Positions 5,000 through 19,457 of a stretch of 24,000 nucleotides of DNA are shown piece by piece (position 1 is the stretch's first letter; every line of letters starts with the position of its first letter). Location of the stretch: contig CAVORG010000036.1 in assembly GCA_963698545.1 (NCBI GenBank), forward strand, positions 78,931-102,930, read 5' to 3'. Below the pieces are notes generated by a model that was not told where the DNA came from, did not search any database, and saw only the letters and a program-made list of their open reading frames with translations. Made by a program: the position numbers and the translations under genes. Origin of the DNA: an uncultured Planctomycetaceae bacterium. Lineage in GTDB: Bacteria; Planctomycetota; Planctomycetia; Pirellulales; Pirellulaceae.

Positions 5000-5052
5000 G
5001 GAGGTCTCCGTAGGTGGTGCGGCTCAGCGCGGGCGAACACGTCCCAACAGAC

Positions 5053-5086: not shown

Positions 5087-5104
5087 GGGTTGGATCCGAT
5101 TGAG

Positions 5105-5930
5105 CTAGGCGCCCAGTTCCCAATGAATGAACTTGACCAGCTTCAGACCGCTTTGGTCGGCGTACTTGCCCACGGTCAGTTTGTCATCCTTCACAAACGG
5201 CTGTTCGGTCAACACCCGCTCGGCGAAGTAGCTTCGCAGGCGGCCTTCGACCATCTTGTCGACGATGCTCTCGGGCTTGCCTTCCTTGAGGGCGGCCTCG
5301 CGCAGGATGGTCCGCTCCTGATCCACTTGGGCGGCGTCCAGATCATCGGTCGTCAAAGCGGCGGGCCGCATGGCGGCGATGTGCATGCAAATGTCGCGAG
5401 CGGCGTCGTCATTGCTTCCCTGCACTTGCAGCAAGACCCCGGAAACCGTGCCGGCGTTGTGCGAATAGCCTCCGCAAACGCCGTCGACGCGAGCGATGCG
5501 GCCGACGTTGAACACCTCGCGAATGCGATTGAACAACTCGTCCTTTTGCTCGCCAAGGGTCATGGTGGGCTTGCTGGGCGACGGTTGTGCGAGCAGCTCT
5601 TCGGCATTGGCGGCGCCAGGGCCGGTCGCGAGCTGTTGAGCCAGATCGTTGGCCAACGCGATGAACTCCTCATTCTGAGTCACCGGAGCGCTCTTCGCAT
5701 TGAAGCTCGACGATGGCGCCAGTGGACTTATCCGACCCGCAATAGATCCCGAAGCGGCCGAAACCGGTTTCGCGATCGGAACGGTCCTTGATCAGTTTGG
5801 CGCCGCGCTCACGCAGCCATTGGATGGCCTTCTCCTGGTCGCCGTCAGCAGCGGTCAGCGCCTTCTTGCAATCCATGAGCGGCAAGCCCGTCTGGGATCG
5901 CAGGGCTTTGACGTCAGCGGCGGAAATCAT
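5105..5930 (-). CDS. tsf: Elongation factor Ts, split into two ORFs by one frame break near 5685-5697
   Basis: ORF 5670..5930 holds the EF-Ts N-terminal UBA-like domain (MISAADVKALRSQTGLPLMDCKKALTAADGDQEKAIQWLRERG...AIVELQCE). ORF 5105..5683 holds the rest (VTQNEEFIALANDLA...GVLLQVQG...ICMHIAAMRPAALT...VEGRLRSYFAERVLTEQPFVKD). The two frames abut at tgcgaagagcgctccggtgact, where a +1 or -2 change gives a continuous protein of about 275 aa. GAGGAG lies upstream of the ATG at 5930. Confidence 0.9.
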
Positions 5931-6106
5931 GATCGTGCTCCTCGGTCGTATTCGGTACGAATGGGCGTGTCTTCGAAACTGTCTACAGGGACGGGATGTT
6001 CAGTTATTGGGTTCACTTGGACCAATGGCAACCGCCTTGAAGCCTCAGGGCCCAAGCCGCCAAACGTCCACCGACCCGCGGTGAAGCAAATGCATGCGGA
6101 CAACCG

Positions 6107-6848
6107 TTAGGCGTTGGCCGGCTGCCCCTCGGGCGCGGCGTCCGCGTCCTTCGCCTGCACCGACGCCTCCTGGCGACCGGCGATCACCGCATCAGCGAGG
6201 ATCTTGGCGACCAACTCGATGGAGCGAATGCCGTCGTCATTGCCGGGAATCGGCAAATCCACCGAATCCGGATCGCAATCGGTATCGATCAAAGCGACCG
6301 TGGCGATGCCCAGCTTGTGCGCCTCGCGGACGGCGTTACGCTCCTTGTTGGGATCGATCACCACCAAGCATTCGGGCAGCCGGTTCATCGACCGCAAACC
6401 GTTCAGGTTGCGGTACATCTTGCGGTATTCGCGGTTCAGGGACGACTGCATCTTTTTGCTGTAAGCCTGCAGCTCCTCGCCGCCCCGGATCTTTTCCAAT
6501 TCCTCCAAGCGGGTCAAGCGACTGCGAACCGTGCGGAAATTGGTCAGGGCGCCGCCGAGCCAGCGCTCGCTGACAAACGGCATATTGCAGCGCGAGGCTT
6601 CGCGTTCGATCGCGGCGCCCGCTTGCCGTTTCGTGCCGACAAACAAAATCAAGCTGCCGCCCGAAGCCACCTGCGCAAGATACTTCTGCGTGCGCGCAAC
6701 AACCCGCGCACGGTCTCGCGAACGTCGATCAAGTGGATCAGGTTCTGCGAGCGTAAATGTAGGGGGCCATTTTCGGGTTCCAGCGACTCGCGCGGTGACC
6801 GAAATGAACTCCCGCCTCAACCAACTGTTCGACGAGCGTTTCCGCCAT
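6107..6848 (-). CDS. rpsB: 30S ribosomal protein S2, interrupted by two frame breaks (about 6741-6746 and 6688-6700)
   Basis: The true N-terminus [35 protein letters not shown] starts at ATG 6848, preceded by AGGAG, and hits TGA after agaacctga. The next frame reads [18 protein letters not shown]. The third frame, which is the ORF-track frame, continues [51 protein letters not shown]...[43 protein letters not shown]. Together these make a normal S2 of about 247 aa. Confidence 0.9.
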
Positions 6849-7067
6849 GTGAGCGAACTCCTAGACCGTCCAGGCGATGCTTGGCCAACGTCGCCGACAA
6901 GGCGAGCGAAAGCGTCAAACACAGGGGCGCCCTTTGCCTGTGGACAGCAAAAGCGTGCATTAGCCATTTCCAGCCCGGACGCACGCGTGACCCAGGACTG
7001 GTCCAAGGAGTCGATGCCCGCTCCTTGCAAACCAAATCGCATAAATTACCAGCGCCGCGGCCGATGG

Positions 7068-7675: not shown

Positions 7676-8431
7676 CTAAGGCACCGGCTGCCGGCCGGCC
7701 GCGGCCACTGGGGCTGCCTGCGGCGTGGTCGCCGCCGCAATCGGCGGTTGAATAATCTCCCGCATCGCCCCGATCCTCAGCAGTTGAATTCTCCGCCGAC
7801 CTATCCGCAACAAGCCTTCCGCTTGCATTTCACCCAGCACGACCGTCACCGTCTCTCTCGTGCTGCCAATCACATTGGCCAGATCTTGATGCGACAGGCC
7901 GATGCCCAGGCGAATCCCTTCTTGTTCCGGCTGCCCGTACCGATCCGCGAGTTCCAGCAACAGATGCGTCAGCCGCTCTCGATTAGAGAGAAACAGCACG
8001 TTCTTCAGCCGCGTTTCGATCCTTCGTCGGCGGAGGCCGATCATCTTGGTGACGCCCATCGAGAGGTCCGGGTTGTAACGCATCATCTCCCGCAAAATGG
8101 CCTTGGGCACCATGACGACGGTGGAGGCCTCAATCGCCTCGGCGTATTCCTCGCGGACGCCTTCGTCGTCCAGGAGGGCCAATTCGCCGAACATGTCGCC
8201 CGGGTCGATCAACGCCAGAATCGACTGTTTGCCGTCGGGAGTCAGGTGACAGATCTTGGCTCGTCCGGACGCCAGAATCAGCACCGCGTCCGCTTGATCG
8301 GCCGGAAGGTAAATCGGCGATCGACGGGCGAAGCGGCAGGCGCGGCTTCGATCTTCGATCATTCGCAGCTGGTCGTCCGGCAACCGTTGCAGCAAATCGC
8401 ACTTTTTCAGAAACCATAAGCGCTCTGACAT
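7676..8431 (-). CDS. Crp/Fnr-family transcriptional regulator (cNMP-binding domain plus C-terminal HTH)
   Basis: ORF 7676..8548 is trimmed to Met40 (ATG 8431), which has GGGAGA 5 nt upstream. The cNMP-binding fold is seen in FLKKCDLLQRLPDDQLRMIEDRS...GDMFGELALLD. The Crp-type HTH is seen in LSHQDLANVIGSTRETVTVVLGEMQAEGLL. Confidence 0.85.
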   Translation of the reverse strand: MSERLWFLKKCDLLQRLPDDQLRMIEDRSRACRFARRSPIYLPADQADAVLILASGRAKICHLTPDGKQSILALIDPGDMFGELALLDDEGVREEYAEAIEASTVVMVPKAILREMMRYNPDLSMGVTKMIGLRRRRIETRLKNVLFLSNRERLTHLLLELADRYGQPEQEGIRLGIGLSHQDLANVIGSTRETVTVVLGEMQAEGLLRIGRRRIQLLRIGAMREIIQPPIAAATTPQAAPVAAAGRQPVP

Positions 8432-8549
8432 CAGATTCTCCCTAAATCGAAGCCGAGGGCATTGTTGCTCGAAACGTGCAAAACGTCCAGTGAACACCGA
8501 GCTTTCGCGACCGGTGGCCGCGAGCCCCCGCACCCTGGCCGCGAGCAAT

Positions 8550-8558
8550 TGCTATATT
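8550..8558 (+). promoter_or_regulatory. Extended -10-like element TGCTATATT upstream of the three-gene operon, adjacent to the palindrome GCAATTGC (8545-8552)
   Basis: It matches TGnTATAAT with one mismatch. It lies 47 nt upstream of ATG 8605, in the 173-nt divergent intergenic region shared with the Crp/Fnr gene. There is no convincing -35. Planctomycete promoters are poorly defined, so this is tentative. Confidence 0.25.
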
Positions 8559-8604
8559 GAGGGGGTCGCTCGGCCAGCTTCTTCGGCTCCAGCCCGTGAT
8601 TCCC

Positions 8605-9636
8605 ATGCACGACATCGACGATCTGCGGCCCGGCGCGGCGGCCTGCCTGTTTACCGATGACATGGCCGCGGCCCGGTATTGGCTGGAGGAGCAAGCCTCT
8701 CGCAGCGACGATCTGCGGCTTGTCCAATGGAGCTGCACACGTCTCCCGCCGCTGAGTCGCCTAAGCGACGCCTTCCTGGCGACCATGGCGGAAGCCGCCT
8801 GGATGCTCTGGCCCGACTGGCCCGACGACTCGCCGCCCGCCGAGGACTCGTCGCCGAATAAGACGCCGGATCGGCAACGGGAAGTTCACGCCGCCTGGAG
8901 GCGAGCCGCCGCAAGTCGGTGTGAGCGAGGGTTGTCGCCGATCCTGAACAAACACTCTTCCGCAATGCAAATTCGTCAGCTCGCACGCATCCTGGCCGCG
9001 CGCCGGCTGGTGTTTGTGGTGATTGTTGAGGATCCGAGTCCGGAGACGGCCAGCCTCTTGGCGCTGGCCCGCGGCTTGGAATGGCTGGCGCGAGAGTCCC
9101 AAGCGGGCGTGCTGGCCGTGTTGCCGACATCGTTCAAGGAGCACGACGCCCTGGACAGCATCAGCTTCGCCGAGCTGTCGTCGAGCCCGGCAGGGGCTGC
9201 GAGCGAGTCGCCAGCGGCAGACATCCAGGATCGCTCGGAAGAACGCAAGCATGTGCTTTGTCCGGTGATCGGCCGCCCCCATCCGGGCAGTCCGGGAGAG
9301 CAACTGCTGGCCGGGCAACTCTCGGTCGATGAGGAACTCGCCGGACAATTCGAATTCAATCAGCGAGTCGTTACGCGATCCGACAGCCGCTATCTGGTGG
9401 ACCTGCTTTGCCGAGCGGGGCGCCTGGTGGTGGAGGTCGATGGATACGGTCATCATGCGTCTCGGTCGGCGTTCAACTCCGATCGCCAACGCGACTACGA
9501 GCTGCTCATCAGCGGCTACCAGGTGCTGCGATTGCCGCATGACTTCGTTGTGCAGGACGTGGTGCTGGCGGTCGCTCGCATTCGCGAAGTATTCCGTTTC
9601 CGCCTACGCTCCCTTGGGCAAGAGGTATGGTCATGA
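8605..9636 (+). CDS. Protein with an unknown roughly 240-aa N-terminal region and a C-terminal DUF559 / Vsr-like endonuclease-fold domain (operon gene 1)
   Basis: ORF 8557..9636. The first ATG is at 8605; TTG 8557 and GTG 8596 are alternatives. The C-terminus is PHPGSPGEQLLAGQLSVDEELAGQFEFNQRVVTRSDSRYLVDLLCRAGRLVVEVDGYGHHASRSAFNSDRQRDYELLISGYQVLRLPHDFVVQDVVLAVARIREVF. It follows the DUF559 pattern (SxxE..L, F..Q, Y.vD, l.vE.DG..H, DR.RD..L...G..VLR). The stop TGA 9634-9636 overlaps ATG 9633 of the next gene. Confidence 0.75.
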   Translation: MHDIDDLRPGAAACLFTDDMAAARYWLEEQASRSDDLRLVQWSCTRLPPLSRLSDAFLATMAEAAWMLWPDWPDDSPPAEDSSPNKTPDRQREVHAAWRRAAASRCERGLSPILNKHSSAMQIRQLARILAARRLVFVVIVEDPSPETASLLALARGLEWLARESQAGVLAVLPTSFKEHDALDSISFAELSSSPAGAASESPAADIQDRSEERKHVLCPVIGRPHPGSPGEQLLAGQLSVDEELAGQFEFNQRVVTRSDSRYLVDLLCRAGRLVVEVDGYGHHASRSAFNSDRQRDYELLISGYQVLRLPHDFVVQDVVLAVARIREVFRFRLRSLGQEVWS

Positions 9637-10455
9637 GTTTCGAGCCGGACAGTTTTCAACGCTTGTTGCTATTGCGATTGGCCTTCACCGATGAAGGCGG
9701 CGAATTCCTCAAGGACCTGGACATCAAGTCCATGGTGGCGCCGCGGCGCAAGGCGTTGCAGCGGGAGGGGCTGACCGAGGAAAGCAATCGGAAACCAGCC
9801 GACGGAAAACGCCCTGTGACTTTCATCAGTCTGACCGAGAAGGGATGGGCCTGGTGCAACGCGAATCTGCGCGACTTCTGCGGCGATGTGAAGCGGCCGG
9901 TCAAGATCATGCTGCCGTTGATGTCGGCCCTGACTCGCAGCATGGCGGACTATTTCCAGCGTCCCGAGGCGCCGGCCTCGCTAGGCGAGTTTGTTCAGCA
10001 GTCTCTGGAAGCCCGCGCCGTCGCGGAGCGGCGCCATCGGCGGCCGACTCATCGGCGGCCGACGCGGCGCCGGCCGACGCGGCGCCGCGGCCGACTCATC
10101 GGCGGCCGACGCGGCGATCGCCGAGACGGCGGCGTCTTCAGCGACCGAAGCCACGGGCGACGCCGAGGTCGAAACGGCGATCGATTTACCCCAAGCGATC
10201 CGCTCGGCTTGTCTGGACTTGACCGCGGGTCGCGTGAACGTGCGGGTGCGTCTCTCTGATCTGCGCCAACGCTTGTCCGGCGCCGCCAAGACCGACGTGG
10301 ACCAGACGTTGTTGGCCATGGAAACCAGGGGCGAGTTGTCGCTCTATCGCCTGGACAATCCGCAAGAGATCGGACCGGACGACCGAGACGCCGTGTTGAG
10401 CACGCCCACCGGCGCCGAACGACATATTCTGTACTTTGGCGGAGCCTCCACATGA
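9633..10455 (+). CDS. Hypothetical two-domain protein with an acidic Ala/Asp/Ser/Pro repeat linker (operon gene 2); two frame breaks in the linker (about 10027 and 10086)
   Basis: ATG 9633 overlaps the gene-1 stop as ATGA, with AAGAGG 7 nt upstream; ATG 9627 is in frame as an alternative. N-terminal half, from ORF 9627..10259: MSFEPDSFQRLLLLRLAFTDEGGEFLKDL...VTFISLTEKGWAWCNANLRDF...SLEARAVAE. Linker in the frame of ORF 9845..10222: AAPSAADSSAADAAPADAAP. C-terminal half in the frame of ORF 9991..10455: ADSSAADAAIAETAASSATEATGDAEVETAIDLPQAIRSACLDLTAGRVNVRVRLSDLRQRLSGAAKTDVDQTLLAMETRGELSLYRLDNPQEIGPDDRDAVLSTPTGAERHILYFGG. Both halves look winged-helix-like; this is my inference with no search behind it. 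Confidence 0.55.
10042..10116 (+). repeat. Direct repeat of a 28-nt unit inside the gene-2 linker, with a 13-nt partial copy between
   Basis: ggccgactcatcggcggccgacgcggcg occurs at 10042-10069 and again at 10089-10116. ggccgacgcggcg occurs at 10072-10084. The full copies are offset by 47 nt, which is one short of 48, so they fall in different frames. This is consistent with a 1-nt deletion between them. Confidence 0.8.
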
Positions 10456-13400
10456 ACGAGTCAGGGGCTTTAGCAGCATTGGCCGCGGCGCAGTTCGACT
10501 GGGCCATGCAACTGCAGGAAGTTTGGAACGATGCAACCGTCGACGTTCCTCGGATTCACGCGACGGCGCGGGGGAAGATCGCCGCGGAACTCAAGAGCTT
10601 GGCGTCGCAGCGGCCGACCACCTCGCCGTTGGGGCTGGTGTTGGTGGGACCGGGCGGTTGCGGCAAGACGCATCTACTCGGCGCTGTGCGGCGCCTGGCG
10701 GCCGCTCAAGGCGCCTGCTTTGTCCTGGTCAACATGACCGATGTTCGCGACTTCTGGGACGTCGTGCTGCAGGGCTACATCGACGCGTTGCAAACGCCTT
10801 ATGTCAATGGGCGGTTCCAATACGAAGCGCTATTGAAGCGGTTCATCCAGGGCGTCTCGTCGGAGGAAAAGGCGGGCAAGGTCTTCGAGCGTCTGACGAC
10901 CAAAAAGTCTGTCGCGCTGGGCAAGGACATCAAGCAAGTCATCGAATTCCTGCGGCGCCGTCATCCGCGGGAAACGCTGAAGCATCAAGACGCGGTTCGC
11001 GCGCTGATCTGTTTGAACTCCACGGACATCGACACCGCCAGCGCGGGCTACTCCTGGCTGCAAGGTTCGGAGGTCGACGCGGATCTGGTGCGGCAACTGG
11101 GTTTTCAAAAACCTCAACAACAACAACGATCCATCATCGCCGCGCTCTCCTGGTTCATGAGTCTCAGCGGTCCGACCGTGATCGCCTTCGATCAGTTGGA
11201 TCCGATTGTGCATCAGGTCGGCCGCTATCGACTGGAAGGCGACGAAGCCGCCCAGGACGGCCTGGCGACGGCCCGCGCGATCCTGGAGCAAATCGCCGGC
11301 GGCCTATCCGGCATGCGCGACACGGCCACCAAGTCGTTGATCCTGGTCTCATGCCTGGAAAGCACTTGGAATCTGTTGGGCGAAATGGCTCTGCAGACAT
11401 TCCAGGATCGCTTCCATCCGCCGGTGCGTTTGCAGAGCAGCAAGGACGACCAGGCGGACGCATTCCGCGCGATGGTCGCCGGCAGGATGGCCCGCGGCAA
11501 TCAACGCGCGAAGTACGACCCGCCTTATCCCACGGCCCCGTTTCGCACCGAGGCGTTTGAAGCGCTGGCCAACTCGACGGCTCGCGAAGTGCTCAAGCTC
11601 TGTGAGGAGCATCGCCGCCGTTGTCTCGAGGCGGGGCAACTCAGCGAGTTGCTCACGTTCGAACAAGCCGCACCCTCTCCGCCCCCAACGCCTGAGGACC
11701 AAGACGAATGGACCTCGTTCGACCGTGAATTCGAACAACTGAAGGCGGCGGCGAACCCCGATCAGCTTGTGGATCCCGCGCATGAAGACGATCTGATGGC
11801 GCCGCTCTATCGCACCGCGATGCAGTGCTTTGTGCACGAGCATGAATTGCCTAGCGATGTCAACGCGTTGGTGGAAAGCGAATTCGCCGGCGGCAAGACG
11901 ACCGTCCCGCTTCATGCACGCCTAAGGTTTGTGTTCTTGCAGCAAGGAGGCAAAGAACAGCATTTCTGCGTGCGAGTGTTGCAACGCCGCCATCACGCGG
12001 CTTACGGCACCCGGCTGAAAGCCGCGATGACGCAATCGGGCATCGACAAGTCGCTGCCTTTCCGACGGCTGACTATTATCCGCACGGGCGAGACGCCCGG
12101 CGGCCCGAAGACCGAACAACTGACGGCAAGATTTCGAGCGGCGGGCGGCAGGTTCCATGAACCGGCCGAAGACGAGATCCGTTCGCTGGCCGCGCTGCAA
12201 GAGATGGCGCTGCGGAACGCGCCCCGATTCACGCTCTGGCTGCGACGCCGGCAGCCGGTGACGCGGTTGAGGCTCGGCGAAGCACTCGCGCCCGACTCGC
12301 CCTGGCAGGACTCGCCGCTGGCGGCGGACACGCTCGCTGGATCCAGCATCCCGCCAACCAGTACGACAACGCCGACCAGCACGACCACGCCAACCAGCAC
12401 GGCAACGGAAACGGAGGAAGCGGTCGCGAAAGCAAAAACAAAAGAACGGGCCGACGACGAACCGGCGGCGACGACGGAACCCACGGGCGGTGCAAGCAAC
12501 TCCGGCCCAGCAAGCGTTGAACCCGCCACGACGGCCTTTGCGCGGACCGGGCGGCTGCCGTTGGGCAGTCGGTTGTTCGGCCAAGGGCGGCTGGGAGAGG
12601 TGGAGTCACTGCCGCTGGCGACGCTCGCCAAACACGTCATGATTCTTGGCGGCGCCGGGTCGGGAAAATCCGTGACGGTGCGGCGACTGGTCGAGGAGGC
12701 GGCGTTGGAGGGCGTTCCCTCGATCGTGATCGACTGTGCTCAGGATATGGCGCTGTTCGACACGGACTGGGACCAGCCGCAGAGCACCTGGCGAGACGGC
12801 GACCCGCAGCGAGCTCGCCAGTTGCGGGAGACGATGGAACAGATCGTCTGGACGCCGGGATCGCTAAGCGGCGGCAATCCGTTGAGCCTGCGGCCGCTGC
12901 CCGATTTCACTCCGGTCAAGGACGACGACGAGGAACTGCAGGATGCGGTCATGATGGTGTGCGACGGGTTGGTGCATCTGGTGGCCAAAGGGTCCTCGCA
13001 GAAGTCCGAACTGAAGAAGGGGATCCTGGTCCACACGCTCAAGCAATTCGCGCGGCAATGCCCGGCGGGCGGCTTGCAGGGCTATATCGATTTCCTGAAA
13101 GAGCTTCCGGCCGACGCCGGACTGGGCATTAGCTCGGAGGCGAAGCTGGCGGCGGAAATGGCCGAGAGCATCATGGTGGAACAGACCCGGAACCCCTTGC
13201 TGGCGCAACAGGGCGCGCCGCTGGACCCGTTGGTGCTTTTTGGCGACGACAAACCCTCGCCGCGCGTTCGCGTCTCGGTGGTCAGCCTGGTGAAGCTGAA
13301 GGGCGAATCGGCGGCCCAGTCGTTTGTGAACCAGTTGGCGATGATGCTGTTCTCCTGGATCAAGGCCAACCCAACGCCGCCGGCGGGTCGCGCCTTACGG

Positions 13401-13823
13401 GGCTTGTTGGTGATTGACGAGGCCAGGGATTTCGCACCTTCGGGGCGAACCACCCAATGCAAGGAGAGCCTGATGCGGCTGGCGGCGCAGGCGCGAAAGT
13501 ATCGTCTGGGCCTGGTCTTCGCGACGCAGCATCCCAAGGATGTGGAGACGAAGATCGTTGGCAACTGCGCAACGCACTTTTATGGACTGAACAATTCGCC
13601 GGCGTCGCTGGCCACCCTGAAGGACTTGATGGCGCAGAAAGGCGGTGGAGGCGACGACATCGCTCGCTTGAAACCCGGCCAGTTCTATGTCCACAACGCG
13701 GAAGCCGGCCATCGAGCGCCGCTGAAGATCCAAGTGCCCCTGTCGCTGTCGTACTCTCCCAGCAACCCCTTGGATGAACAACAACTGATGGCCAAGGCCG
13801 CAGCTTCCCGTGAGCGGTTGTGA
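10452..13823 (+). CDS. 1123-aa tandem P-loop NTPase: N-terminal AAA-like module plus C-terminal HerA/FtsK-like (DUF87-type) module (operon gene 3)
   Basis: Intact ORF. ATG 10452 overlaps the gene-2 stop TGA 10453-10455, with GGAG 7 nt upstream. Module 1 has Walker A GPGGCGKT (10647-10670) and Walker-B-like VIAFDQLD (11178-11201). The linker is IPPTSTTTPTSTTTPTSTATETEEAVAKAKTKERADDEPAATTEP. Module 2 has Walker A GGAGSGKS within HVMILGGAGSGKSVTVRRLVEEAALEGVPSIVIDCAQD (12648-12671) and Walker B LLVIDEARDF (13404-13421). It then reads ARKYRLGLVFATQHPKDVETKIVGNCATHFYGL, the HerA/FtsK/VirB4-type pattern. Confidence 0.85.
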   Translation: MNESGALAALAAAQFDWAMQLQEVWNDATVDVPRIHATARGKIAAELKSLASQRPTTSPLGLVLVGPGGCGKTHLLGAVRRLAAAQGACFVLVNMTDVRDFWDVVLQGYIDALQTPYVNGRFQYEALLKRFIQGVSSEEKAGKVFERLTTKKSVALGKDIKQVIEFLRRRHPRETLKHQDAVRALICLNSTDIDTASAGYSWLQGSEVDADLVRQLGFQKPQQQQRSIIAALSWFMSLSGPTVIAFDQLDPIVHQVGRYRLEGDEAAQDGLATARAILEQIAGGLSGMRDTATKSLILVSCLESTWNLLGEMALQTFQDRFHPPVRLQSSKDDQADAFRAMVAGRMARGNQRAKYDPPYPTAPFRTEAFEALANSTAREVLKLCEEHRRRCLEAGQLSELLTFEQAAPSPPPTPEDQDEWTSFDREFEQLKAAANPDQLVDPAHEDDLMAPLYRTAMQCFVHEHELPSDVNALVESEFAGGKTTVPLHARLRFVFLQQGGKEQHFCVRVLQRRHHAAYGTRLKAAMTQSGIDKSLPFRRLTIIRTGETPGGPKTEQLTARFRAAGGRFHEPAEDEIRSLAALQEMALRNAPRFTLWLRRRQPVTRLRLGEALAPDSPWQDSPLAADTLAGSSIPPTSTTTPTSTTTPTSTATETEEAVAKAKTKERADDEPAATTEPTGGASNSGPASVEPATTAFARTGRLPLGSRLFGQGRLGEVESLPLATLAKHVMILGGAGSGKSVTVRRLVEEAALEGVPSIVIDCAQDMALFDTDWDQPQSTWRDGDPQRARQLRETMEQIVWTPGSLSGGNPLSLRPLPDFTPVKDDDEELQDAVMMVCDGLVHLVAKGSSQKSELKKGILVHTLKQFARQCPAGGLQGYIDFLKELPADAGLGISSEAKLAAEMAESIMVEQTRNPLLAQQGAPLDPLVLFGDDKPSPRVRVSVVSLVKLKGESAAQSFVNQLAMMLFSWIKANPTPPAGRALRGLLVIDEARDFAPSGRTTQCKESLMRLAAQARKYRLGLVFATQHPKDVETKIVGNCATHFYGLNNSPASLATLKDLMAQKGGGGDDIARLKPGQFYVHNAEAGHRAPLKIQVPLSLSYSPSNPLDEQQLMAKAAASRERL
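12354..12407 (+). repeat. Three tandem 18-nt units encoding (PTST[TA]T)x3 in the inter-ATPase linker
   Basis: ccaaccagtacgacaacg / ccgaccagcacgaccacg / ccaaccagcacggcaacg, in frame within the 1123-aa ORF. Confidence 0.85.
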
Positions 13824-14125: not shown

Positions 14126-16819
14126 TTAAGGCTTGGCAATCAGCAACTTGGCCAACGTTGAGGCGAGGTCTTGCAGCGAATTCTCATTGGGCAGCGTGAA
14201 GCGGACGTTCAGTCGGCCTTGATCGTCGCGTTCGACGCATTGGTCCAATCCAGCCCGAACTTCGTTGACCATCTGAGAGTCCGGAGCCCCGCCCGTATCC
14301 AGCAGCTCGCCGACCAGCTTGAGCGCGGCGCCGAGCAACTCGCCGCCGGCGGCGGCCACCTTGTCCCTCCGCGCGGCGATGATCTGAGCTTCGGCGTGCA
14401 CGGCGCGCTGCTGGGAGGCGTCGATCGGCGCGGCCGTTGGCTGCCCTAACAACTGTTCCAAGCGCCGCTTCAATTCGTCAATCCCGCCGCGCATCTCCAC
14501 CTCGGACACATTGGAATCGACATCCAGCGCGGCCAACGCCAAATCATGCTTGGCCGACAGCGTCCCCAGCAGTCGCTCCTCGATCGTGTCTTCGGTGACC
14601 AACAGATAAACCTGAACGGGATTTTTCTGGCCCATGCGATGAGCGCGAGCGATGCGTTGTTCGAGAACCGCCGGGTTCCACGGCAGATCAACGTTGATGA
14701 TCGTATTGGCTGCCTGCAGGTTCAAACCGGTGCTGCCGGCGTTGCTCATGATGATCGCTTTGCAGTCTTTGTCGTTCTGAAAGCGATGCACCAACACCTG
14801 TCGCTTCTTTTGGGGCACCTTGCCGTCCAGGCGCACGAAATCGAAACCGTTCGTGGAAAGCACGGGCTCGATCAGGTTCAGCATCGTCGTCCACTCGCTG
14901 AACAACACCAGCTTGCGGTCTCCTTCGGCGGCGAGCTGCGCCAAGAGCTCATTCAGGTGCTCCAACTTGCTGCTGTAGGAAGGCTGCTGCTTGTCCACGA
15001 GAAACGTGCTGTTGCAGGCCATGCGGGCCATGAGCAGGAATTTCTGCAGTCGCAACAGGTCCATCTCGGTGAGAAACTTCTTGCGGGCGATCAACGCGGC
15101 GCGCTTGACGTACTCGTCGCTAAGAACATGCTGCTCCTCGGTGGGCCGGATGCGCAGGATCTCGGTCGTGCGTTCGGGCAGTTCCCGCATGACGCTCGCG
15201 CGTGCGGCGCAACAGGATGGGTTTTAACTTGTCGCGAAGTTGGTCCAGGTTGCGATAGCCTTCGACTTTTCCTCGTTCATCGACAACGCGGTGGCGATTC
15301 AGGAAGCGATAGGCCGGTCCCAGGCGTCGGTCATCGATGAAGCTGACGACCGTGTAGAGCTCCTCAAGTCGATTCTCCAGGGGCGTACCGGACAAGACGA
15401 GCGCAAAGGTCGACTTCAGCGTCTTGATCAACCTCGAGGTTTTGGATTCCCAATTCTTGATGCGTTGTCCTTCATCCAGAATGATCAAATCCCACTTCTG
15501 CATCTCGATGGCCGAGTGATCGCGGAGCACCTGCTCGTAGTTGCAGATCGTGAAGAACGCGGCGGATTCATATTGCGCCGCGCGCTCCTCGCCGTTGCCA
15601 AGCACGATTTGGCTCGTGCGGTCGCTGAAGCGACTGATCTCGCTGCGCCACTGGCTCTTCAAGGACGCGGGACAGACGATCAACACTCGCTCGATGCCGG
15701 CCAGGCGGGCCAGCAATTCGGCGACGCCGATCCCCTGAATGGTCTTTCCCAATCCCATGTCGTCCGCCAGGATCGCGCGGCCGGCTTGGGCGGCGAACGC
15801 GATTCCGTCCAATTGATAGGGCAGCAATTCGGCGTGCAGCAATTCCGTGCGCAGCGGATGCCTGGCTGGATCTCGCCGGATCTCTTCGGCGGCTTGTGCG
15901 ATTCGTTTCTGCAGCAATCGTTGCTCGATGAATTCCTCGGCGTCAGGATAAATGTGAACCGAATGGCCGGCTTGTTCGAGCTTTCTCATTCGCTTCAGCA
16001 GATCATCGACGTTGTCAAAGACGCCCTCGGCCAAGGGTCCGAGGATCTTGCGGACCTGATCGTCCAAGCGAGTGGGCAGGTTGAAGTGCAGCCCCAGTTC
16101 CCGGCCGTACTCCAGACGGAGCGAGAGGTTTTTTCGCCGATAGGGCTTCGCCAGCGTCTTGTTCGGAAATCGCTTCTTGATCTTCTCCTGGGCGTGCAGA
16201 ATATGTTTGCACGTGCCGAGATGATTGGTGCGAAAATCGGGACACGAGCAATAGGACATCCCCGGCTCCAGGCCTCGGAGCGAGACGCGGTAGGTTCGGC
16301 CCGACATGTGGCTGGTGACCGTGTAATCCGCCCAGGGAACGTCGGGATTCAAGGAGCGGAGCGTCATCTTTTCGGCGGCGGCGCGCTCCTGCCGGTCGGC
16401 CAGGCGCGGTGCATCAACTCGTCTTCGGTCAACAGCTCGATCGGCTCCGAGGGATCGGGAGGCGCGGCGAGGCCGAGCGTCAACTTTTCCTCCAGCACCA
16501 TTCCCAGGACCGCGGCGATGTGGTCGCAGCAGGCGTTGCAGACCTCGCAGTGCAAGTGCAAGCCCTTGGGCTTGGCGGCCATCTCGGTGACGATCACGTT
16601 GGCTCGCCCCTCCGGCGCGCCCGGGTCCGGCACGCTCACTCGCAGCGTGTCGCCGCCAAGATAAACGTCGCAGGACGGGTCGATGTCGTACAGCCCGCCG
16701 CGTCGCAGACGGGCCTCGCCGTCTTCGTCCCCCATCAAGCGACAGGCCGCGCGGTAGGTCAGCTGGCCCAGTCGCTCCCGAATGCCCTTCCGCCGCTTCT
16801 GACTTCGCGATCGCACCAT
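14126..16819 (-). CDS. SNF2-family helicase with a SWIM zinc finger (about 897 aa); two frame breaks (about 16399-16405 and 15196-15206)
   Basis: Stitched from ORFs 16364..16819, 15120..16946 (only its part from LADRQERAAAEKMTLRS onward is real) and 14126..15190. The junctions are ELMHRA|LADRQERAAAEK and KPILLRRTR|..VMRELPERT. SWIM motif: YCSCPDFRTNHLGTCKHILHA. SNF2 motifs: LADDMGLGKT, ILDEGQRIKN, LSGTPLEN. Helicase-C motifs: LVLFSEWTTMLNLIE, QRIARAHRMGQ. GAGAGGA lies upstream of ATG 16819. Confidence 0.85.
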
Positions 16820-17284
16820 TTCGAGTTCCTCTCGATGACTCCCTTGTCCTAGTCGCCGTCATTGTGGCACGGGCCTGGCCCCTTGAAAAGTCGCTCCAAG
16901 CATCATTACGACAACGCGCAACGTTAACGAATCGGGCCGCCGTCATTGTCCGGGTGGTGGCGATCTGCCCGCGAGGCCGTGTGGATCACCACGGAGAGCG
17001 CGGAGCAACACAGAGGACAGAATTGCAGCCACCTTTGTGGTTCTCCGTGTCCTCCATGGTCAATTCCATCCGGATTCTTCCTGACTTGATGCTCATGGGG
17101 TGAGCGAAGCGCAACCCTGGGAAGCGGCTTTTCGCCTTCGAACTGTGTGTGACGGCCATGGCCCTCGGCGTTTTGTGTAGACTGTGGGAATACGCTTTCG
17201 GCCGAGCCGGTTTGGCGGGCGTGCCGGTTGCTGACACTCTGTGTTGACCTGCCGGGTCGCGGTAAATTCGTTTCATGGCGTGAC

Positions 17285-19457
17285 ATGACAAATCTTTGCA
17301 TCGGCCTGTTGCTGCTGGCCCATGGCGGCGACGGTCCTGTGGACTTTGATGCGGACGTCGCACCGATCCTGACCAAAGCCGGTTGCAACGCCGGTGCTTG
17401 CCATGGTTCAGCGGCGGGCCGCGGCGACTTTCGCCTGTCGTTGTTCGGAGGCGACTTGGCGGCGGATTATGAACAGATCGTGTGGGCCCTGGAGGGGCGC
17501 CGCATCAACTTGAAGCAGCCGGACGCGAGCCTCTTGCTGACCAAGCCCACCGAATATCTCACGCACGGCGGCGGGCAGCGCTTGGAGTACGACGGCCCTT
17601 GGGCGAGAATCCTCCAACGGTGGATTGAGGAGGGCGCGGTGCGCTCCGAGCAGCCGTCCACGCTCGAGGCGATCACCGTGGACGTGCGCCCCTCGGAGAA
17701 CGCATCCGAGCGTTGGACGTTCGCCATCGACGTCCACGCTCGCTTTCGGTCAGCGCGGGGCGACTTCACGCGAGACGTCGCCGAGCTGTCGATTCTGACC
17801 CCCGATGATCCACAAGCGGTCCTTGTGAAGCCTGGCGGCGTGGTGCATGTCGCTCGGGCCGGCCGTCATACCTTGATCGTCCGTTACCTGAATCAAATCC
17901 AAGCCGTCTCGCTGACCCGCGGCTTGACGCCGGTCGCTGACGTCGCACGCGGCGAGGGCTTGAAGACGAGCGGGAACTGGATCGACGACGAACTGGACGG
18001 CTTGCTGCGCGCCTTGGGGGCGCCGGCTGCTGGACCGTGCGAAGACGGTCCGTGGCTGCGCCGCTTGACCTTGCGGCTAACTGGCCGCTTGCCGGAGGCG
18101 GCGGCCGTCAAGGAATTCCTGGAAGACGCGCGGCCGGACAAGGACGCCTGGGCGATCGAACGCCTGCTGAATTCGGATGAATTCGCGCAGTATTGGAGCT
18201 TTCGGCTGGGCCAGTTGCTGCGGCTGCGGGTTTCCCAACGAGACTCAGCCGGCGATCGTCTTCCGCCAATGGCTGACCGCACAGCTGCGGCAAGATCCAG
18301 CGGATTGGGCGTTGATGTCGCGAACCATGTTATTGGCCCAGGGAGATACGCATGAAGTAGGCCCGGCCAGCATTCACCGTTTGGCGGCGGGTCCGCGCGA
18401 GCAAGCTGAGTACTTCAGCGAAGCGTTCTTGGGGGTGCGTTTGCGATGCGCGAATTGCCACAACCATCCGCTGGATCGTTGGACGCAGGACGACTACCAC
18501 GGATTGGCCGCGATCTTCGCGGGCGTGCAACGAGGCCGAATTATCCGGCTCACCCAAAGCGGCGAAGTCGTTCATCCGCGCACCGGCGAGGCCGCCATGG
18601 CGAAAATCCCCGCGGGCCCGATTCTTAACGGCGCCCAGCGACGCTTCCGCCGACTCGCCTCGAAACTCAAGGGACGCGCCCGAGCGAATCGAACGACTCG
18701 CCGATTGGCTGACATCGAGGGAGAACCCCTGGTTCGCCAAGGCGATCGTGAATCGGCTGTGGCGCGAGCTCATGGGCGCGGCCTGGTCGAGCCGGTGGAC
18801 GATCTCCGCAACTCCAATCCGGGAGTCCATGCCAAGCTGCTCGAGCGTTTGGCGGAGGACTTTCGCCAGCATGATCACAACCTGCGGCGGACGCTAAAGC
18901 TGATCGCGCAGTCGGCGGCCTTTCGACGCTCGGCGATCAACCCGCATCCGCTTGCGGACGGCGGCTATTACGCTCGCTTTGCGACCTCGCCCATGCAAGC
19001 CGAGGTGTGGTTGGACGCCATCGCCGACGCTACCGGCGTCCCCGCAGTCTTCGGTAAGGAACAACAAGCGGCCCGCGCCGTCCTGCTGCAGGATCCATTG
19101 GCTGAGAACGACTCGCTGGATGTCATCGGCCGTTGCGATCGTCAAGACTCGTGCGATTCAGGCGGCGCAGGCGCCAGCGATTTGCGCGTCCGATTGCATC
19201 TGATCAACGGACCCTTGTTGAATGCGCGATTGAGCAGCCCGCAAGGCAAGCTCGCCGAATGGTTGAGCAACGACGCGAAAGACCCGAACGAGATTCTCAA
19301 GTCCCTGTATCTCGCAGCCTTGGCAAGATATCCTCGTGACGATGAGCTCTCATTTTGGCGAAAGGAAATCGAGAACCTGACTCGCGACGAGCAGCGATCG
19401 TTCTGGGAGGACGCGTTCTGGAGCGTGCTCTGCTCGGACGAATTCCTGCGGTATTGA
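17285..19457 (+). CDS. DUF1549/DUF1553 (PSD1-type) planctomycete family protein with an N-terminal Cys motif; three frame breaks (about 18228-18232, 18590-18640, 18774-18780)
   Basis: Stitched from ORFs 17228..18355 and 18177..19457, plus a third-frame segment. N-terminus: MTNLCIGLLLLAHGG...ILTKAGCNAGACHGSAAGRGDFRLSLFG. DUF1549-like: WIDDELDGLLRALG...RRLTLRLTGRLPEAAAVKEFLED...ERLLNSDEFAQYWSFRLGQLLRLR. DUF1553-like: VRLRCANCHNHPLDRWTQDDYHGLAAIF. The third-frame segment ERIERLADWLTSRENPWFAKAIVNRLWRELMG rejoins GRGLVEPVDDLRNSNPGVHAKLLERLAEDF. Confidence 0.8.

What the first reader, a model, noticed from the sequence alone, without database searches (positions are those of the whole stretch)
10452..13823. 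1123-aa fusion of two unrelated P-loop NTPase modules; the first has a DQ instead of a DE Walker B
Module 1 (residues about 60-250) has Walker A GPGGCGKT. Its best Walker B candidate is VIAFDQLD, which has Gln where a catalytic Glu is usual. If the alignment is right, this resembles engineered E-to-Q ATP-trap mutants and suggests a nucleotide-gated switch or sensor rather than a motor.

Module 2 (residues about 725-1100) is HerA/FtsK-like (GGAGSGKS, LLVIDEARDF, VFATQHPKDV), typical of ring translocases.

The modules are separated by about 450 aa of unassigned sequence and a Thr/Pro-rich acidic linker with a (PTSTxT)x3 tandem repeat. I do not know of a described family with this layout.

It is also the longest stretch in this error-prone window (3.4 kb) with no frame break.
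Basis: partly seen in the sequence, partly recalled or inferred. Interest (0 to 1): 0.65.

Follow-up and report, generated by a model that had tools for sequence, protein, structure and literature searches.

The report
Orc/Cdc6–HerA fusion ATPase of a nuclease cassette
This 1123-residue protein is a real, widespread fusion of an ORC/Cdc6-like ATP-binding module (with an invariant Gln where the catalytic Glu should be) to a HerA/FtsK-type DNA pump; it is encoded with a small winged-helix protein and usually a nuclease, in a cassette type predicted in 2024 to capture invading DNA but never tested experimentally.

Summary
ORF 10452..13823 (+) encodes 1123 aa carrying every quoted motif. The fusion is not an artefact: at least 561 full-length relatives occur in species-representative genomes from at least 8 phyla.

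The DQ is real. A confident AlphaFold model ends a beta-strand at D247, and Q248 is invariant (80/80 loci), as are K72 and D250. No alternative DE exists.

The "unassigned" 450 aa resolve into an AAA+ lid, a restriction-endonuclease-like domain with non-canonical conserved residues, a probable winged helix and an unconserved Pro/Ala/Ser/Thr tether.

Module 2 has all the HerA/FtsK catalytic motifs.

The gene is the third of a conserved cassette:
- A: DUF559 endonuclease, 8557..9636.
- B: probable tandem winged-helix protein, 9627..10455, frameshifted in this window.
- C: the finding.

B precedes C in 80/80 loci and A is present in 63. Nothing else recurs.

This layout matches the "Orc/Cdc6 + inactive REase + wHTH + HerA/FtsK + active REase" capture systems described computationally by Rakesh, Aravind & Krishnan (NAR 2024).

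A defence role is inferred, not shown, and the flanks give no defence-island signal. The invariant Walker B Gln is not mentioned in the parts of that paper I read.

The parts
8557..9636 (+). Gene A: 359-aa protein with a C-terminal DUF559/Vsr-like (PD-(D/E)xK-type) endonuclease domain; predicted effector nuclease
   Evidence: Pfam DUF559 E=3e-10, above cut-off, at residues 264-344. It lies directly upstream of B in 63 of 80 loci. D229, E240, D242, H247, D256 and R259 are each conserved in 53/53 homologues and D260 in 52/53 (numbering of the trimmed alignment).
9627..10455 (+). Gene B: small (about 210-240 aa in homologues), probable tandem winged-helix protein. In this window it is broken by one frameshift between about 10004 and 10135
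   Evidence: Homologue residues 1-120 match one frame (9633-10004) and residues 124-226 match another (10135-10443). B lies immediately upstream of C in 80/80 loci that have upstream DNA. Only weak winged-helix hits were found: MarR-type ZitR/AdcR, ZBP1 Z-alpha, DUF6293_C, MCM WHD.
10452..13823 (+). Gene C: the finding; 1123-aa Orc/Cdc6-like AAA+ / REase-like / wHTH / tether / HerA-FtsK fusion. Its ATG overlaps the stop codon of gene B (ATGA)
10617..11441 (+). AAA+ alpha/beta base (residues 56-330), with a 145-aa helical insert (residues 101-237) between strands 2 and 3
   Evidence: AF2 model, pLDDT 83.9: strands at 61-65, 89-94, 242-247 and 295-301. The top Foldseek hits (E about 1e-3 or weaker, none at or below 0.001) are nearly all AAA+ proteins: Cdc48/p97, Vps4, HslU, archaeal and eukaryotic ORC, TnsC. 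Pfam AAA_16/AAA_22.
10647..10670 (+). Walker A of module 1, GPGGCGKT (residues 66-73)
   Evidence: G66, G69, G71, K72, T73 and H74 are each 80/80.
11178..11201 (+). Walker B of module 1, VIAFDQLD (residues 243-250): D-Q-h-D instead of the Orc1/Cdc6-type D-E-h-D
   Evidence: Strand 242-247 ends at D247. D247 79/80, Q248 80/80, D250 80/80. Among the fetched representatives, 99 carry D-Q-h-D, including each of the HerA-less or truncated proteins checked that has a Walker A and a matched Walker B, except P0188.
11442..11636 (+). AAA+ helical lid (residues 331-395), carrying candidate sensor-2 arginines R345 and R378. The candidate arginine finger R320 lies just upstream
   Evidence: Helices at 331-352, 366-370 and 377-394. 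R320 77/80, R345 79/80, R378 79/80. The roles of these residues are inferred from their positions.
11772..12089 (+). Restriction-endonuclease-like alpha-beta-beta-beta-alpha-beta domain (residues 441-546) with non-canonical conserved residues (E463, H488, E502-x-H504, R538): the 'iREase' of the published description
   Evidence: Separate AF2 model, pLDDT 89.4. There are only weak Foldseek matches, several of them to PD-(D/E)xK proteins: Cap4, FANCM/FAAP24, XPF, MUS81, FokI. No Pfam or PDB sequence match.
12090..12287 (+). Probable C-terminal winged-helix-like region of the Orc/Cdc6 module (residues 547-612), with invariant W596
   Evidence: The secondary-structure order helix 552-563, strand 567-569, helix 573-588, helix 593-600 is consistent with a wHTH. 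W596 is 80/80. The assignment is inferred, not demonstrated.
12288..12551 (+). Unconserved Pro/Ala/Ser/Thr-rich tether (residues 613-700), including the PTSTxT x3 repeat (DNA tandem repeat 12352..12407)
   Evidence: Length is 31-151 aa across 80 homologues (median 68). Mean column identity is 0.18, against 0.5-0.6 in the domains. TRF period 18, 3.1 copies.
12552..13751 (+). HerA/FtsK-type ATPase module (residues 701-1100) with a complete catalytic set: Walker A GGAGSGKS (12648..12671), Walker B LLVIDE (13404..13421), RKY arginine-finger motif (13494..13502), ATQ
   Evidence: PADLOC mad8 E=2e-23 over 280 of 314 profile positions, and HerA models at about 1e-10. PDB profile hits to HerA chains: 8xau 9e-12, 8wiv 4e-10. 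K739 79/80, D989 79/80, E990 80/80, R1015 80/80, Q1026 79/80.

Best explanation
Gene C is the central subunit of a self-contained three-gene cassette, A-B-C. The cassette is of the kind described computationally as 'Orc/Cdc6-coupled HerA/FtsK capture systems'.

Shown here:
- C is a conserved single polypeptide made of an ORC/Cdc6-like AAA+ module, a restriction-endonuclease-fold domain with non-canonical residues, a short helical (probably winged-helix) region, a variable flexible tether, and a HerA/FtsK-type ATPase with every catalytic motif intact.
- The AAA+ module keeps its Walker A Lys, Walker B Asp and candidate arginine-finger and sensor arginines. Its catalytic Glu position is invariably Gln.
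- C is always preceded by B, a small probable tandem winged-helix protein, and usually by A, a DUF559/Vsr-type endonuclease with a conserved active site.
- The cassette is patchily spread over many phyla, in unrelated chromosomal contexts.

Inferred:
- The HerA module assembles into a ring that pumps double-stranded DNA.
- The Orc/Cdc6 module, with its own wHTH, the REase-like domain and protein B, binds DNA in an ATP-dependent way. It acts as a slowly hydrolysing or non-hydrolysing nucleotide switch that positions or licenses the tethered pump, rather than acting as a second motor.
- The pumped DNA is delivered to nuclease A for cleavage.
- The most likely biological role is restriction of invading DNA (phage, plasmid, conjugative element), as proposed for this class by Rakesh et al. 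2024.
For: Fusion real and conserved:
- At least 120 listed full-length homologues.
- At least 561 loci in species-representative genomes from Planctomycetota, Cyanobacteria, Actinomycetota, Alphaproteobacteria, Myxococcota, Acidobacteriota, Sumerlaeota and others.
- The middle domain defines 536 representatives, mostly about 1050-1200 aa with the domain at about 405-620.

AAA+ fold and Walker B position:
- AF2 model, pLDDT 83.9 / pTM 0.81.
- Top Foldseek hits nearly all AAA+, including ORC/Cdc6 and TnsC.
- AAA_16/AAA_22 above Pfam cut-offs.

Motif conservation:
- D-Q-h-D: D247 79/80, Q248 80/80, D250 80/80. K72, R320, R345 and R378 are conserved.
- HerA motifs intact.

Other domains:
- REase-like topology of residues 441-546 in a model of pLDDT 89.4, with weak PD-(D/E)xK matches.

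Cassette:
- B upstream in 80/80 loci, A in 63, and no other gene shared by more than 6 loci.
- A has DUF559 and invariant catalytic-type residues.

Literature:
- The published description of this domain combination, with the proposed capture mechanism, is PMC10853773, sections 22 and 26. It is restated in PMC12839542.

Context hint:
- One relative (L086) sits between a helicase, an Mrr nuclease and a Type ISP/IIG R-M gene.
Against: - No experiment exists for this class.
- The immediate flanks of 120 neighbour ORFs show no defence-island enrichment. No family recurs in more than 3 loci and most are housekeeping or metabolic genes. In this window the cassette lies beside rpsB-tsf-pyrH-frr.
- PADLOC has no model for A, B or the N-terminal half of C.
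- The REase-like and wHTH assignments rest on topology and weak matches only.
- I could not verify that this exact family is in the authors' dataset, because the accession lists are not in the held supplement.
- Whether DUF559 is one of their 'two REase families' is unknown.
- Gln at the Walker B position does not prove loss of hydrolysis. D250 (80/80) or D97 (70/80) could substitute.
- A is missing in about a fifth of loci, and some relatives lack HerA altogether, so the pump-to-nuclease coupling is not obligatory.
Confidence: 0.6

Rival explanations
1. The cassette is a housekeeping DNA-repair or chromosome-maintenance machine, analogous to HerA-NurA end resection. The HerA pump feeds DNA ends to nuclease A, and the Orc-like module recognises damaged or structured DNA.
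For: - The cassette lies in ordinary chromosomal contexts, next to rpsB-tsf-pyrH-frr here and next to metabolic genes elsewhere.
- There is no defence-island enrichment.
- It is widely retained in planctomycetes at 40-55% identity.
- HerA-nuclease pairing is the classical repair arrangement (established knowledge of HerA-NurA).
Against: - The distribution across unrelated phyla is patchy and the flanks are different in almost every genome. This is typical of horizontally moving accessory cassettes, not core repair genes.
- Integrase/excisionase or transposase genes lie nearby in some loci.
- There is an R-M/Mrr neighbourhood in L086.
- NCBIfam HerA repair equivalogs score 27-32 bits against cut-offs of 800-970.
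- The domain set matches the published conflict-system class.
Confidence: 0.15
2. Module 1 is a fully active AAA+ motor in which another residue (D250, or D97 at the tip of strand 2) takes over the role of the Walker B glutamate. C would then be a two-motor machine, not a switch plus a motor.
For: - D250 is invariant (80/80) three residues after the Walker B Asp, and D97 is 70/80.
- The Walker A Lys and the candidate arginine-finger and sensor-2 arginines are all conserved. That would be unnecessary for a purely structural nucleotide site.
Against: - From general knowledge, not tested here: D-x-h-D is simply the ancestral Orc1/Cdc6/RFC-type D-E-x-D box with E replaced by Q, and in those proteins the second Asp is not the catalytic base.
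- Other candidate residues are not conserved: E303 33/80, T96 42/80.
- Engineered E-to-Q changes at this position abolish hydrolysis but keep ATP binding across AAA+ proteins (established knowledge).
Confidence: 0.25
3. The cassette serves a mobile element's own DNA transfer, segregation or packaging (a FtsK/TraB/VirB4-like pump with an initiator-like AAA+ and a nicking nuclease), rather than host defence.
For: - HerA/FtsK relatives drive conjugative transfer and packaging. There are weak TraC/VirB4/TraD/TrwB hits.
- Orc/Cdc6-clade ATPases serve transposons such as Tn7 TnsC, which is a structural hit.
- An integrase and HTH_17 gene lie near L003.
- The authors themselves say these neighbourhoods show features of both mobile elements and defence.
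Against: - No integrase, replication, relaxase or secretion genes recur with the cassette. Nothing beyond A, B and C is shared by more than 6 of 86 loci.
- The flanks are mostly ordinary chromosomal genes.
- There are no terminal repeats or element boundaries in evidence, although these were not searched systematically.
Confidence: 0.07
4. The long ORF is an artefactual fusion of two neighbouring genes, created by a sequencing error in an error-prone assembly.
For: - The window does contain several frameshifted genes.
- One relative (L086) is called as two genes.
Against: - Full-length single ORFs occur in 80/80 independent genome loci and in at least 120 listed database proteins.
- The L086 split coincides with a poly-A run where a 1-nt shift restores the fusion.
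Confidence: 0.01

Closest known systems
Orc/Cdc6-coupled 'HerA/FtsK capture systems' (Rakesh, Aravind & Krishnan, Nucleic Acids Res 2024, PMC10853773; restated in PMC12839542)
   Same: - The same set of domains: Orc/Cdc6 AAA+, a REase-fold domain without canonical catalytic residues placed between the AAA+ core and a C-terminal wHTH, HerA/FtsK, a separate active REase, and an extra multi-wHTH protein.
- The description allows single or multiple polypeptides.
- Mobile, phyletically patchy neighbourhoods.
   Different: - I could not confirm that this particular family (a three-gene A-B-C cassette with a DUF559 nuclease) is among their examples.
- The sections I read call the Orc/Cdc6 domain an ATPase and do not mention the invariant Walker B Gln.
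- The 'inactive' REase here keeps near-invariant E/H/E-x-H/R residues.
- About a fifth of loci lack A, and some relatives lack HerA.
HerA-effector defence complexes (SIR2-HerA, DUF4297-HerA; PDB 8xau, 8wiv, 8j4u/8su9, 9c1m) and archaeal HerA-NurA
   Same: - HerA-type Walker A, Walker B (DE), arginine-finger and C-terminal motifs. These are the best PDB sequence matches.
- The logic of an ATPase ring coupled to a nuclease or NADase effector.
   Different: - Only the C-terminal core aligns.
- NCBIfam HerA equivalogs score 20-32 bits against cut-offs of 800-970.
- Here the region preceding the ATPase is a disordered tether and an Orc/Cdc6 module, where classical HerA has an N-terminal barrel domain. 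This was not checked structurally.
- The effector is a DUF559 nuclease, not NurA, SIR2 or DUF4297.
Mad8 of the MADS defence system (Maestri et al., bioRxiv 10.1101/2023.03.30.534895; PADLOC PDLC04140)
   Same: The best PADLOC match for module 2: E=2e-23, covering 280 of 314 profile positions. It is a small HerA/FtsK-like ATPase that is essential for an experimentally shown anti-phage system.
   Different: - MADS is an 8-gene methylation-associated operon in which Mad6, Mad7 and Mad8 are mandatory.
- Genes A and B, the other ORFs scanned between 7676 and 20488, and the N-terminal half of C match no mad model.
- No methyltransferase was detected in the window ORFs scanned with Pfam.
ORC/Cdc6 initiators and relatives (archaeal Orc1/Cdc6, eukaryotic ORC subunits, DnaA, TnsC) and STAND/AAA_16 NTPases
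   Same: - AAA+ base plus lid, followed by a C-terminal helical/wHTH region.
- A helical insert after strand 2, where the initiator-specific motif sits.
- A D-x-h-D Walker B box.
- Structural hits 1w5s, 5zr1, 5uj7, 7ufi.
- Several natural members of this clade use ATP binding as a switch (established knowledge).
   Different: - No close structural relative (no Foldseek hit at E <= 0.001).
- A 145-aa insert.
- A REase-fold domain inserted before the wHTH.
- Invariant Gln at the catalytic Glu position.
- Covalent fusion to a HerA pump.
Tandem-ATPase machines with one degenerate nucleotide site (for example NSF D2, Pex1/Pex6 D1, EccC ATPase domains)
   Same: One polypeptide carries a catalytic P-loop module and a second module that appears to bind nucleotide without normal hydrolysis. 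This is a functional analogy, from general knowledge.
   Different: In those proteins the two modules are paralogues of one family, stacked as rings. Here they come from different superfamilies and are joined by a 31-151-aa disordered tether.

Membership tests
Orc/Cdc6-coupled HerA/FtsK capture system (PMC10853773) | [quoted passage not shown] | tested here: met
   AAA_16 and AAA_22 score above Pfam cut-offs. AF2 model with the AAA+ strand order and a lid. Foldseek top hits are AAA+ proteins, including archaeal and eukaryotic ORC/Cdc6 and TnsC. Assignment to the clade rests on weak structural scores (E about 1e-3).
Orc/Cdc6-coupled HerA/FtsK capture system (PMC10853773) | An inactive REase-fold domain inserted between the AAA+ core and the C-terminal wHTH | tested here: inconclusive
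   A confident model (pLDDT 89.4) has alpha-beta-beta-beta-alpha-beta order at residues 441-546, followed by a helix-strand-helix-helix region. Foldseek gives only weak matches (E > 0.01), several to PD-(D/E)xK proteins. The canonical D...(D/E)xK is absent and replaced by H488...E502-x-H504. Position and topology fit, but the fold is not proven.
Orc/Cdc6-coupled HerA/FtsK capture system (PMC10853773) | A HerA/FtsK ATPase domain, in the same or a neighbouring polypeptide | tested here: met
   Pfam FtsK_SpoIIIE and DUF87 above cut-offs. PADLOC mad8 and HerA models. PDB HerA profile hits. Catalytic motifs conserved in 79-80 of 80 sequences.
Orc/Cdc6-coupled HerA/FtsK capture system (PMC10853773) | An active REase-superfamily nuclease encoded in the neighbourhood (one of two families, according to the paper) | tested here: met
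   Gene A has DUF559 (E=3e-10) and a weak REase_MTES_1575 hit. It is present in 63 of 80 loci and its catalytic-type residues are invariant. Whether DUF559 is one of the paper's two families could not be checked.
Orc/Cdc6-coupled HerA/FtsK capture system (PMC10853773) | wHTH domains, or an additional rapidly evolving 2-4 x wHTH protein | tested here: inconclusive
   Gene B is present in 80/80 loci but gives only weak winged-helix hits, with E between 0.004 and 0.2. At 35% mean column identity it is less conserved than C (45%). No structure prediction was run for B.
Orc/Cdc6-coupled HerA/FtsK capture system (PMC10853773) | Mobile, phyletically patchy gene neighbourhood | tested here: met
   At least 8 phyla. 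No conserved flanking gene beyond A, B and C. Flanks are heterogeneous.
Orc/Cdc6-coupled HerA/FtsK capture system (PMC10853773) | Listed among the authors' examples (Supplementary Data S1 / Figure 7 tree) | not testable with these tools
   The only supplement held as text lacks accession lists. WP_076347216, WP_145089370, WP_068421074 and WP_145257243 were not found.
MADS (methylation-associated defence system) | Mad6, Mad7 and Mad8 all present (mandatory in the authors' model), with methyltransferase and specificity genes | tested here: not met
   Only mad8 matches, and only to the C-terminal module. None of the 10 ORFs scanned between 7676 and 20488, genes A and B included, matches any mad model. 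No methyltransferase was detected in the window ORFs scanned with Pfam.
Canonical HerA (repair HerA-NurA; anti-phage HerA equivalogs) | Full-length match to the curated HerA equivalog models | tested here: not met
   NF042944 32 bits against a cut-off of 850; NF040937 27 against 800; NF040819 19 against 970. Only the conserved ATPase motifs align.
STAND NTPases (AAA_16-type) | NTPase followed by C-terminal superstructure-forming repeats or sensor domains | tested here: not met
   No repeat domains were detected by Pfam. The region after the lid is a REase-like domain, a short helical region and a HerA module. The nSTAND Pfam hits fall on the Walker A of module 2 only.

The most novel reading that the evidence does not exclude
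The Orc/Cdc6 module is a naturally 'E-to-Q trapped' AAA+ that never turns over ATP. It uses nucleotide binding purely to license and position, on target DNA, the very pump it is covalently tethered to. In effect this would be a bacterial loader-plus-motor in one chain, echoing ORC/Cdc6 loading of MCM. In addition, the so-called inactive REase domain, with its near-invariant Glu/His/Glu-x-His/Arg constellation, would be a functional metal- or ligand-binding sensor (for example of DNA modification or a nucleotide signal) that gates the switch.
Probability: 0.2. Interest if true: 0.7.

Novelty: new member of a known kind. Interest (0 to 1): 0.4.

Why it matters
- If the model holds, this is one of the more widespread HerA-based conflict systems that nobody has tested. 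It occurs in at least 561 species-level genomes across Planctomycetota, Cyanobacteria, Actinomycetota, Proteobacteria and others.
- It is absent from the PADLOC version 2.0.0 library used here.
- The family gives a clean natural experiment on AAA+ mechanism. Every nucleotide-site residue is kept except the catalytic Glu, which is always Gln. That makes a specific prediction: ATP-bound switch, no turnover, and Q248E restores hydrolysis. A handful of point mutants could test it.
- The family also suggests that the 'inactive' REase domain of this class deserves a second look.
- For genome annotation, these proteins are currently labelled only 'ATP-binding protein' or 'DUF87 domain-containing protein'.

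Tried and rejected
1. Artefactual fusion. Rejected: full-length ORFs in 80/80 loci and in at least 120 listed database proteins.
2. A different, canonical Walker B elsewhere in module 1. Rejected: no conserved DE/DD on any core strand.
3. E303 or T96 as substitute catalytic residues. They looked conserved among close homologues but fall to 33/80 and 42/80 in the wide set.
4. MADS membership. Rejected: only mad8 hits, and only module 2.
5. Sequence-based annotation of the middle domain (Pfam on 23 members; PDB profile). Nothing found.
6. Foldseek on the middle domain. No significant hit; only a weak scatter of PD-(D/E)xK folds.
7. Pfam and PDB profile searches on gene B. Only weak winged-helix hits.
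8. An alternative nuclease in the A position of loci that lack A. The upstream ORFs are unrelated (P450, ADH, glycosyltransferase, DUF2064) or have no Pfam hit.
9. A fourth conserved gene. None found.
10. Defence-island enrichment of the flanks. Not found.
11. Looking up homologue accessions in the supplement of PMC10853773. The accession lists are not held.
12. True split (two-gene) versions. L086 is probably a poly-A frameshift. L088/L089 genuinely lack HerA. L087 is too short to tell.
13. The MADS preprint main text gives no domain description of Mad8.

Full report
**1. The observation**

The window contains an ATG-initiated ORF at 10452..13823 on the + strand encoding 1123 residues. Third-position GC periodicity supports this frame throughout.

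- GPGGCGKT, residues 66-73
- VIAFDQLD, residues 243-250
- GGAGSGKS, residues 733-740
- LLVIDEARDF, residues 985-994
- VFATQHPKDV, residues 1022-1031
- PTSTTT-PTSTTT-PTSTAT, which is also a DNA tandem repeat (12352..12407, period 18, 3.1 copies)

Pfam places AAA_16/AAA_22 (above cut-off) at residues 40-262 and FtsK_SpoIIIE/DUF87 (above cut-off) at 708-762.

**2. Is the fusion real?**

A search of 5.8 billion proteins returned at least 120 proteins of 1060-1200 aa that align over 98-100% of the query at 39-55% identity. Most are from planctomycetes such as Paludisphaera, Tautonia, Rosistilla and Kolteria.

The best 80, nearly all covering about residues 1-1120 (a few are cut by contig ends), come from Planctomycetota, Cyanobacteria, Actinomycetota, Xanthobacter, Myxococcota, Acidobacteriota, Sumerlaeota, Hydrogenedentes and Thermodesulfobacteriota.

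An exhaustive profile search with the family-specific middle domain found 536 representatives. Most are about 1050-1200 aa with the domain at about 405-620.

Of the shorter proteins I could inspect:
- One apparent two-gene version (L086) breaks at a poly-A run where a single-base shift restores the fusion.
- One pair of contigs (L088/L089) truly lacks the HerA part.

The fusion is therefore the normal state and not a sequencing artefact, even though this window is indeed error-prone. Gene B, the SNF2 gene and the PSCyt2/PSD1 gene are all frame-broken.

**3. Anatomy of the protein**

An AlphaFold2 model of residues 1-622, built on 23 homologues, is confident (pLDDT 83.9, pTM 0.81). It shows:
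- An alpha/beta base with strands at 61-65 (leading into the P-loop), 89-94, 242-247 and 295-301.
- A 145-residue helical insert between strands 2 and 3.
- A helical lid at 331-394.
- A separate alpha/beta domain.

Foldseek against the PDB finds no close relative (no hit at E <= 0.001). The top hits are nearly all AAA+ proteins: Cdc48/p97, Vps4, HslU, Aeropyrum ORC2, yeast and human ORC subunits, and TnsC.

A second model of residues 412-622 is very confident (pLDDT 89.4). It has the order helix, three strands, helix, strand (residues 441-546), which is the restriction-endonuclease core topology. A helix-strand-helix-helix region follows (547-612), which is compatible with a winged helix.

Foldseek gives nothing significant for this second model. 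The weak hits include several PD-(D/E)xK proteins: Cap4, FANCM/FAAP24, XPF, MUS81-EME1, FokI and EcoO109I. Pfam and PDB sequence searches are empty.

Residues 613-700 form an unconserved Pro/Ala/Ser/Thr-rich tether. Its length ranges from 31 to 151 aa across the family and its mean column identity is 0.18. The PTSTxT repeat was not examined in other members; the tether it lies in is unconserved.

Residues 701-1100 are HerA/FtsK-like. PADLOC mad8 scores E=2e-23 over 280 of 314 positions, with HerA models at about 1e-10. Profile hits to solved HerA chains include 8xau at 9e-12 and 8wiv at 4e-10.

**4. The DQ Walker B**

In the model, strand 242-247 (TVIAFD) ends at D247, and Q248 occupies the position of the catalytic glutamate.

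Conservation across 80 sequences from the wide phyletic set:

| Residue(s) | Conserved in |
|---|---|
| G66, G69, G71, K72, T73, H74 | 80/80 each |
| D247 | 79/80 |
| Q248 | 80/80 |
| D250 | 80/80 |
| R320 | 77/80 |
| R345 | 79/80 |
| R378 | 79/80 |
| E303 | 33/80 |
| T96 | 42/80 |
| D97 | 70/80 |

E303 and T96 looked conserved among close homologues but do not hold up in the wide set. No other conserved DE or DD lies on a core strand. Among the representatives fetched in the exhaustive search, 99 carry D-Q-h-D, including HerA-less proteins.

From general knowledge, D-E-h-D is the Walker B box of Orc1/Cdc6/RFC-type AAA+ proteins. This family has that box with E replaced by Q.

Whether it abolishes hydrolysis cannot be decided in silico. 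D250 and D97 remain possible alternative acids. By position, R320 is a candidate arginine finger and R345/R378 are candidate sensor-2 residues (inference).

By contrast, module 2 keeps K739, D989-E990, R1015-K-Y and Q1026 in 79-80 of 80 sequences. It is expected to be an active motor.

**5. Genomic context**

In Paludisphaera borealis, in a 7.8-Mb genome assembly (GCA_021651095.1) and in Rosistilla, the gene is preceded by a DUF559-domain protein of 353-380 aa and an unannotated protein of 217-239 aa, with overlapping or abutting reading frames.

I iterated HMMs for these two proteins over six-frame ORFs of 86 loci. B lies immediately upstream of C in all 80 loci that have upstream DNA, and A lies upstream of B in 63. 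All-against-all clustering of ORFs finds no other gene shared by more than 6 loci, apart from shadow ORFs overlapping C.

In the window:
- A is 8557..9636.
- B is 9627..10455 and carries one frameshift between about 10004 and 10135.
- The stop codon of B overlaps the ATG of C.

A keeps an invariant DUF559/Vsr-type constellation: D229, E240-x-D242, H247, D256, R259 and D260. B gives only weak but consistently winged-helix hits in both halves. Where A is missing, the upstream ORFs are unrelated genes.

The window around the cassette is ordinary chromosome:
- rpsB-tsf-pyrH-frr and a Crp-family regulator upstream.
- A convergent, frameshifted SNF2 helicase downstream. It is not conserved with the cassette elsewhere.
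- Planctomycete-specific PSCyt2/PSD1, CNNM/CBS and PQQ-propeller genes further on.

**6. Comparison with what is known**

Rakesh, Aravind & Krishnan (NAR 2024, PMC10853773) describe mobile neighbourhoods in which HerA/FtsK domains are coupled to a specific Orc/Cdc6 AAA+ ATPase. [quoted passage not shown] They propose that the Orc/Cdc6 part localises the apparatus on DNA while HerA/FtsK intercepts and pumps invader DNA to the nuclease. A 2026 paper from the same group restates this theme.

The domain order I derived independently, plus genes A and B, matches this description feature by feature. I therefore file the finding as a member of that computationally defined class, with three caveats:
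- The REase-fold and wHTH calls are only weakly supported here.
- I could not check the authors' accession lists.
- The class has no experimental validation in the library I could search.

It is not MADS: only Mad8 matches, and no Mad6, Mad7 or methylase is present. It is not a canonical HerA equivalog either.

**7. Function**

The defence reading rests on four things:
- The domain logic.
- The patchy distribution over at least 8 phyla with unrelated flanks.
- The published proposal.
- One relative embedded among a helicase, an Mrr nuclease and a Type ISP/IIG R-M gene.

Against it, a bulk scan of 120 immediate neighbours shows no defence-island signal. No family recurs in more than 3 loci, and most neighbours are metabolic or housekeeping genes. 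There are a few TerD/AIM24, ROCO, kinase and HTH genes.

I therefore give the overall explanation a confidence of 0.6. The architecture and class membership are well supported. The capture-and-cleave mechanism and the switch role of the DQ module are inferred. I keep a DNA-repair reading (0.15), an active-motor reading of module 1 (0.25, as a sub-claim) and a mobile-element-function reading (0.07) as rivals.

**8. Verdict**

But the layout is a known, computationally described kind, and the 'unassigned' region is explicable.

What may be new is the strict invariance of Gln at the Walker B glutamate position of the Orc/Cdc6 module. It occurs alongside full conservation of the rest of the nucleotide site, and alongside conserved Glu/His/Glu-x-His/Arg residues in the supposedly inactive REase domain.

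Novelty: new member of a known kind. Interest: 0.4.

Noticed in passing
window 9627..10455 (break between about 10004 and 10135): Gene B of the cassette is split by a frameshift. Homologue residues 1-120 match one frame and residues 124-226 match another. Either this is a sequencing error or the cassette is inactivated in this organism.
   Followed up: partly
window 14126..16946 (-), overlap at 15120..15190: A roughly 960-aa SNF2-family helicase (DpdE/ZorD/DrmD-like in PADLOC) is split into two ORFs in different frames, with SNF2-rel_dom in one and Helicase_C in the other. It converges on gene C but is not conserved next to the cassette in other genomes. Its N-terminal 340 or so residues are unannotated.
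   Followed up: partly
window 17228..19457 (+), break near 18177..18355: A planctomycete-type PSCyt2 (DUF1549) / PSD1 (DUF1553) gene is frame-broken inside the PSCyt2 domain. Its presence points to a planctomycete origin for the window.
   Followed up: partly
window 3647..7042 (-): A housekeeping cluster, rpsB - tsf - pyrH - frr. EF-Ts may also be frame-broken (ORFs 5105..5683 and 5670..5930 are in different frames). The second piece was not scanned.
   Followed up: no
window 10731..10733 (residue N94 of C) and gene A alignment position 232: The window's proteins deviate from otherwise strongly conserved positions. D94 is N here (53 of 54 close homologues have D). W232 of gene A is C here (51 of 53 have W). 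These may be sequencing errors or real substitutions.
   Followed up: no
L086 3252..8185 and flanks: In a JGI metagenome contig the cassette is annotated as four genes: A, B, Orc-iREase (651 aa) and HerA (414 aa). The last two overlap by 16 nt at a poly-A run, which is probably a frameshift. The locus is flanked by a DEAD/ResIII helicase, an Mrr_cat/NA-iREase1 nuclease, an HTH_17 gene and a Type ISP/IIG R-M gene, so it looks like a defence island.
   Followed up: partly
L088 4360..6860 and L089 3412..5912: Two contigs carry only B plus a 619-aa Orc-iREase protein (with D-Q-M-D). There is no HerA and no gene A, and the next gene is a PAS histidine kinase. The B + Orc-iREase pair may be the true core of the system.
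   Followed up: partly
window 11772..12089 (residues 441-546 of C): The REase-like domain, called 'inactive' in the literature, keeps near-invariant E463, H488, E502, H504 and R538 at or near the canonical catalytic positions. This suggests a metal or ligand site rather than a dead relic.
   Followed up: partly
window 1..3663 and 22440..23999: Several long ORFs with good coding-type GC3 signal (for example 2081..2767, 2767..3663, and 22440..23999, which is open at the window end) have no Pfam match at E <= 0.001. The frame signal in 1..3600 switches often, possibly because of further frameshifts.
   Followed up: no
window 7676..8548 (-): A Crp/Fnr-family regulator (cNMP_binding + HTH_Crp_2) is divergently oriented, 8 bp upstream of gene A. 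It was not seen next to the cassette in the other loci, so it is probably unrelated.
   Followed up: no
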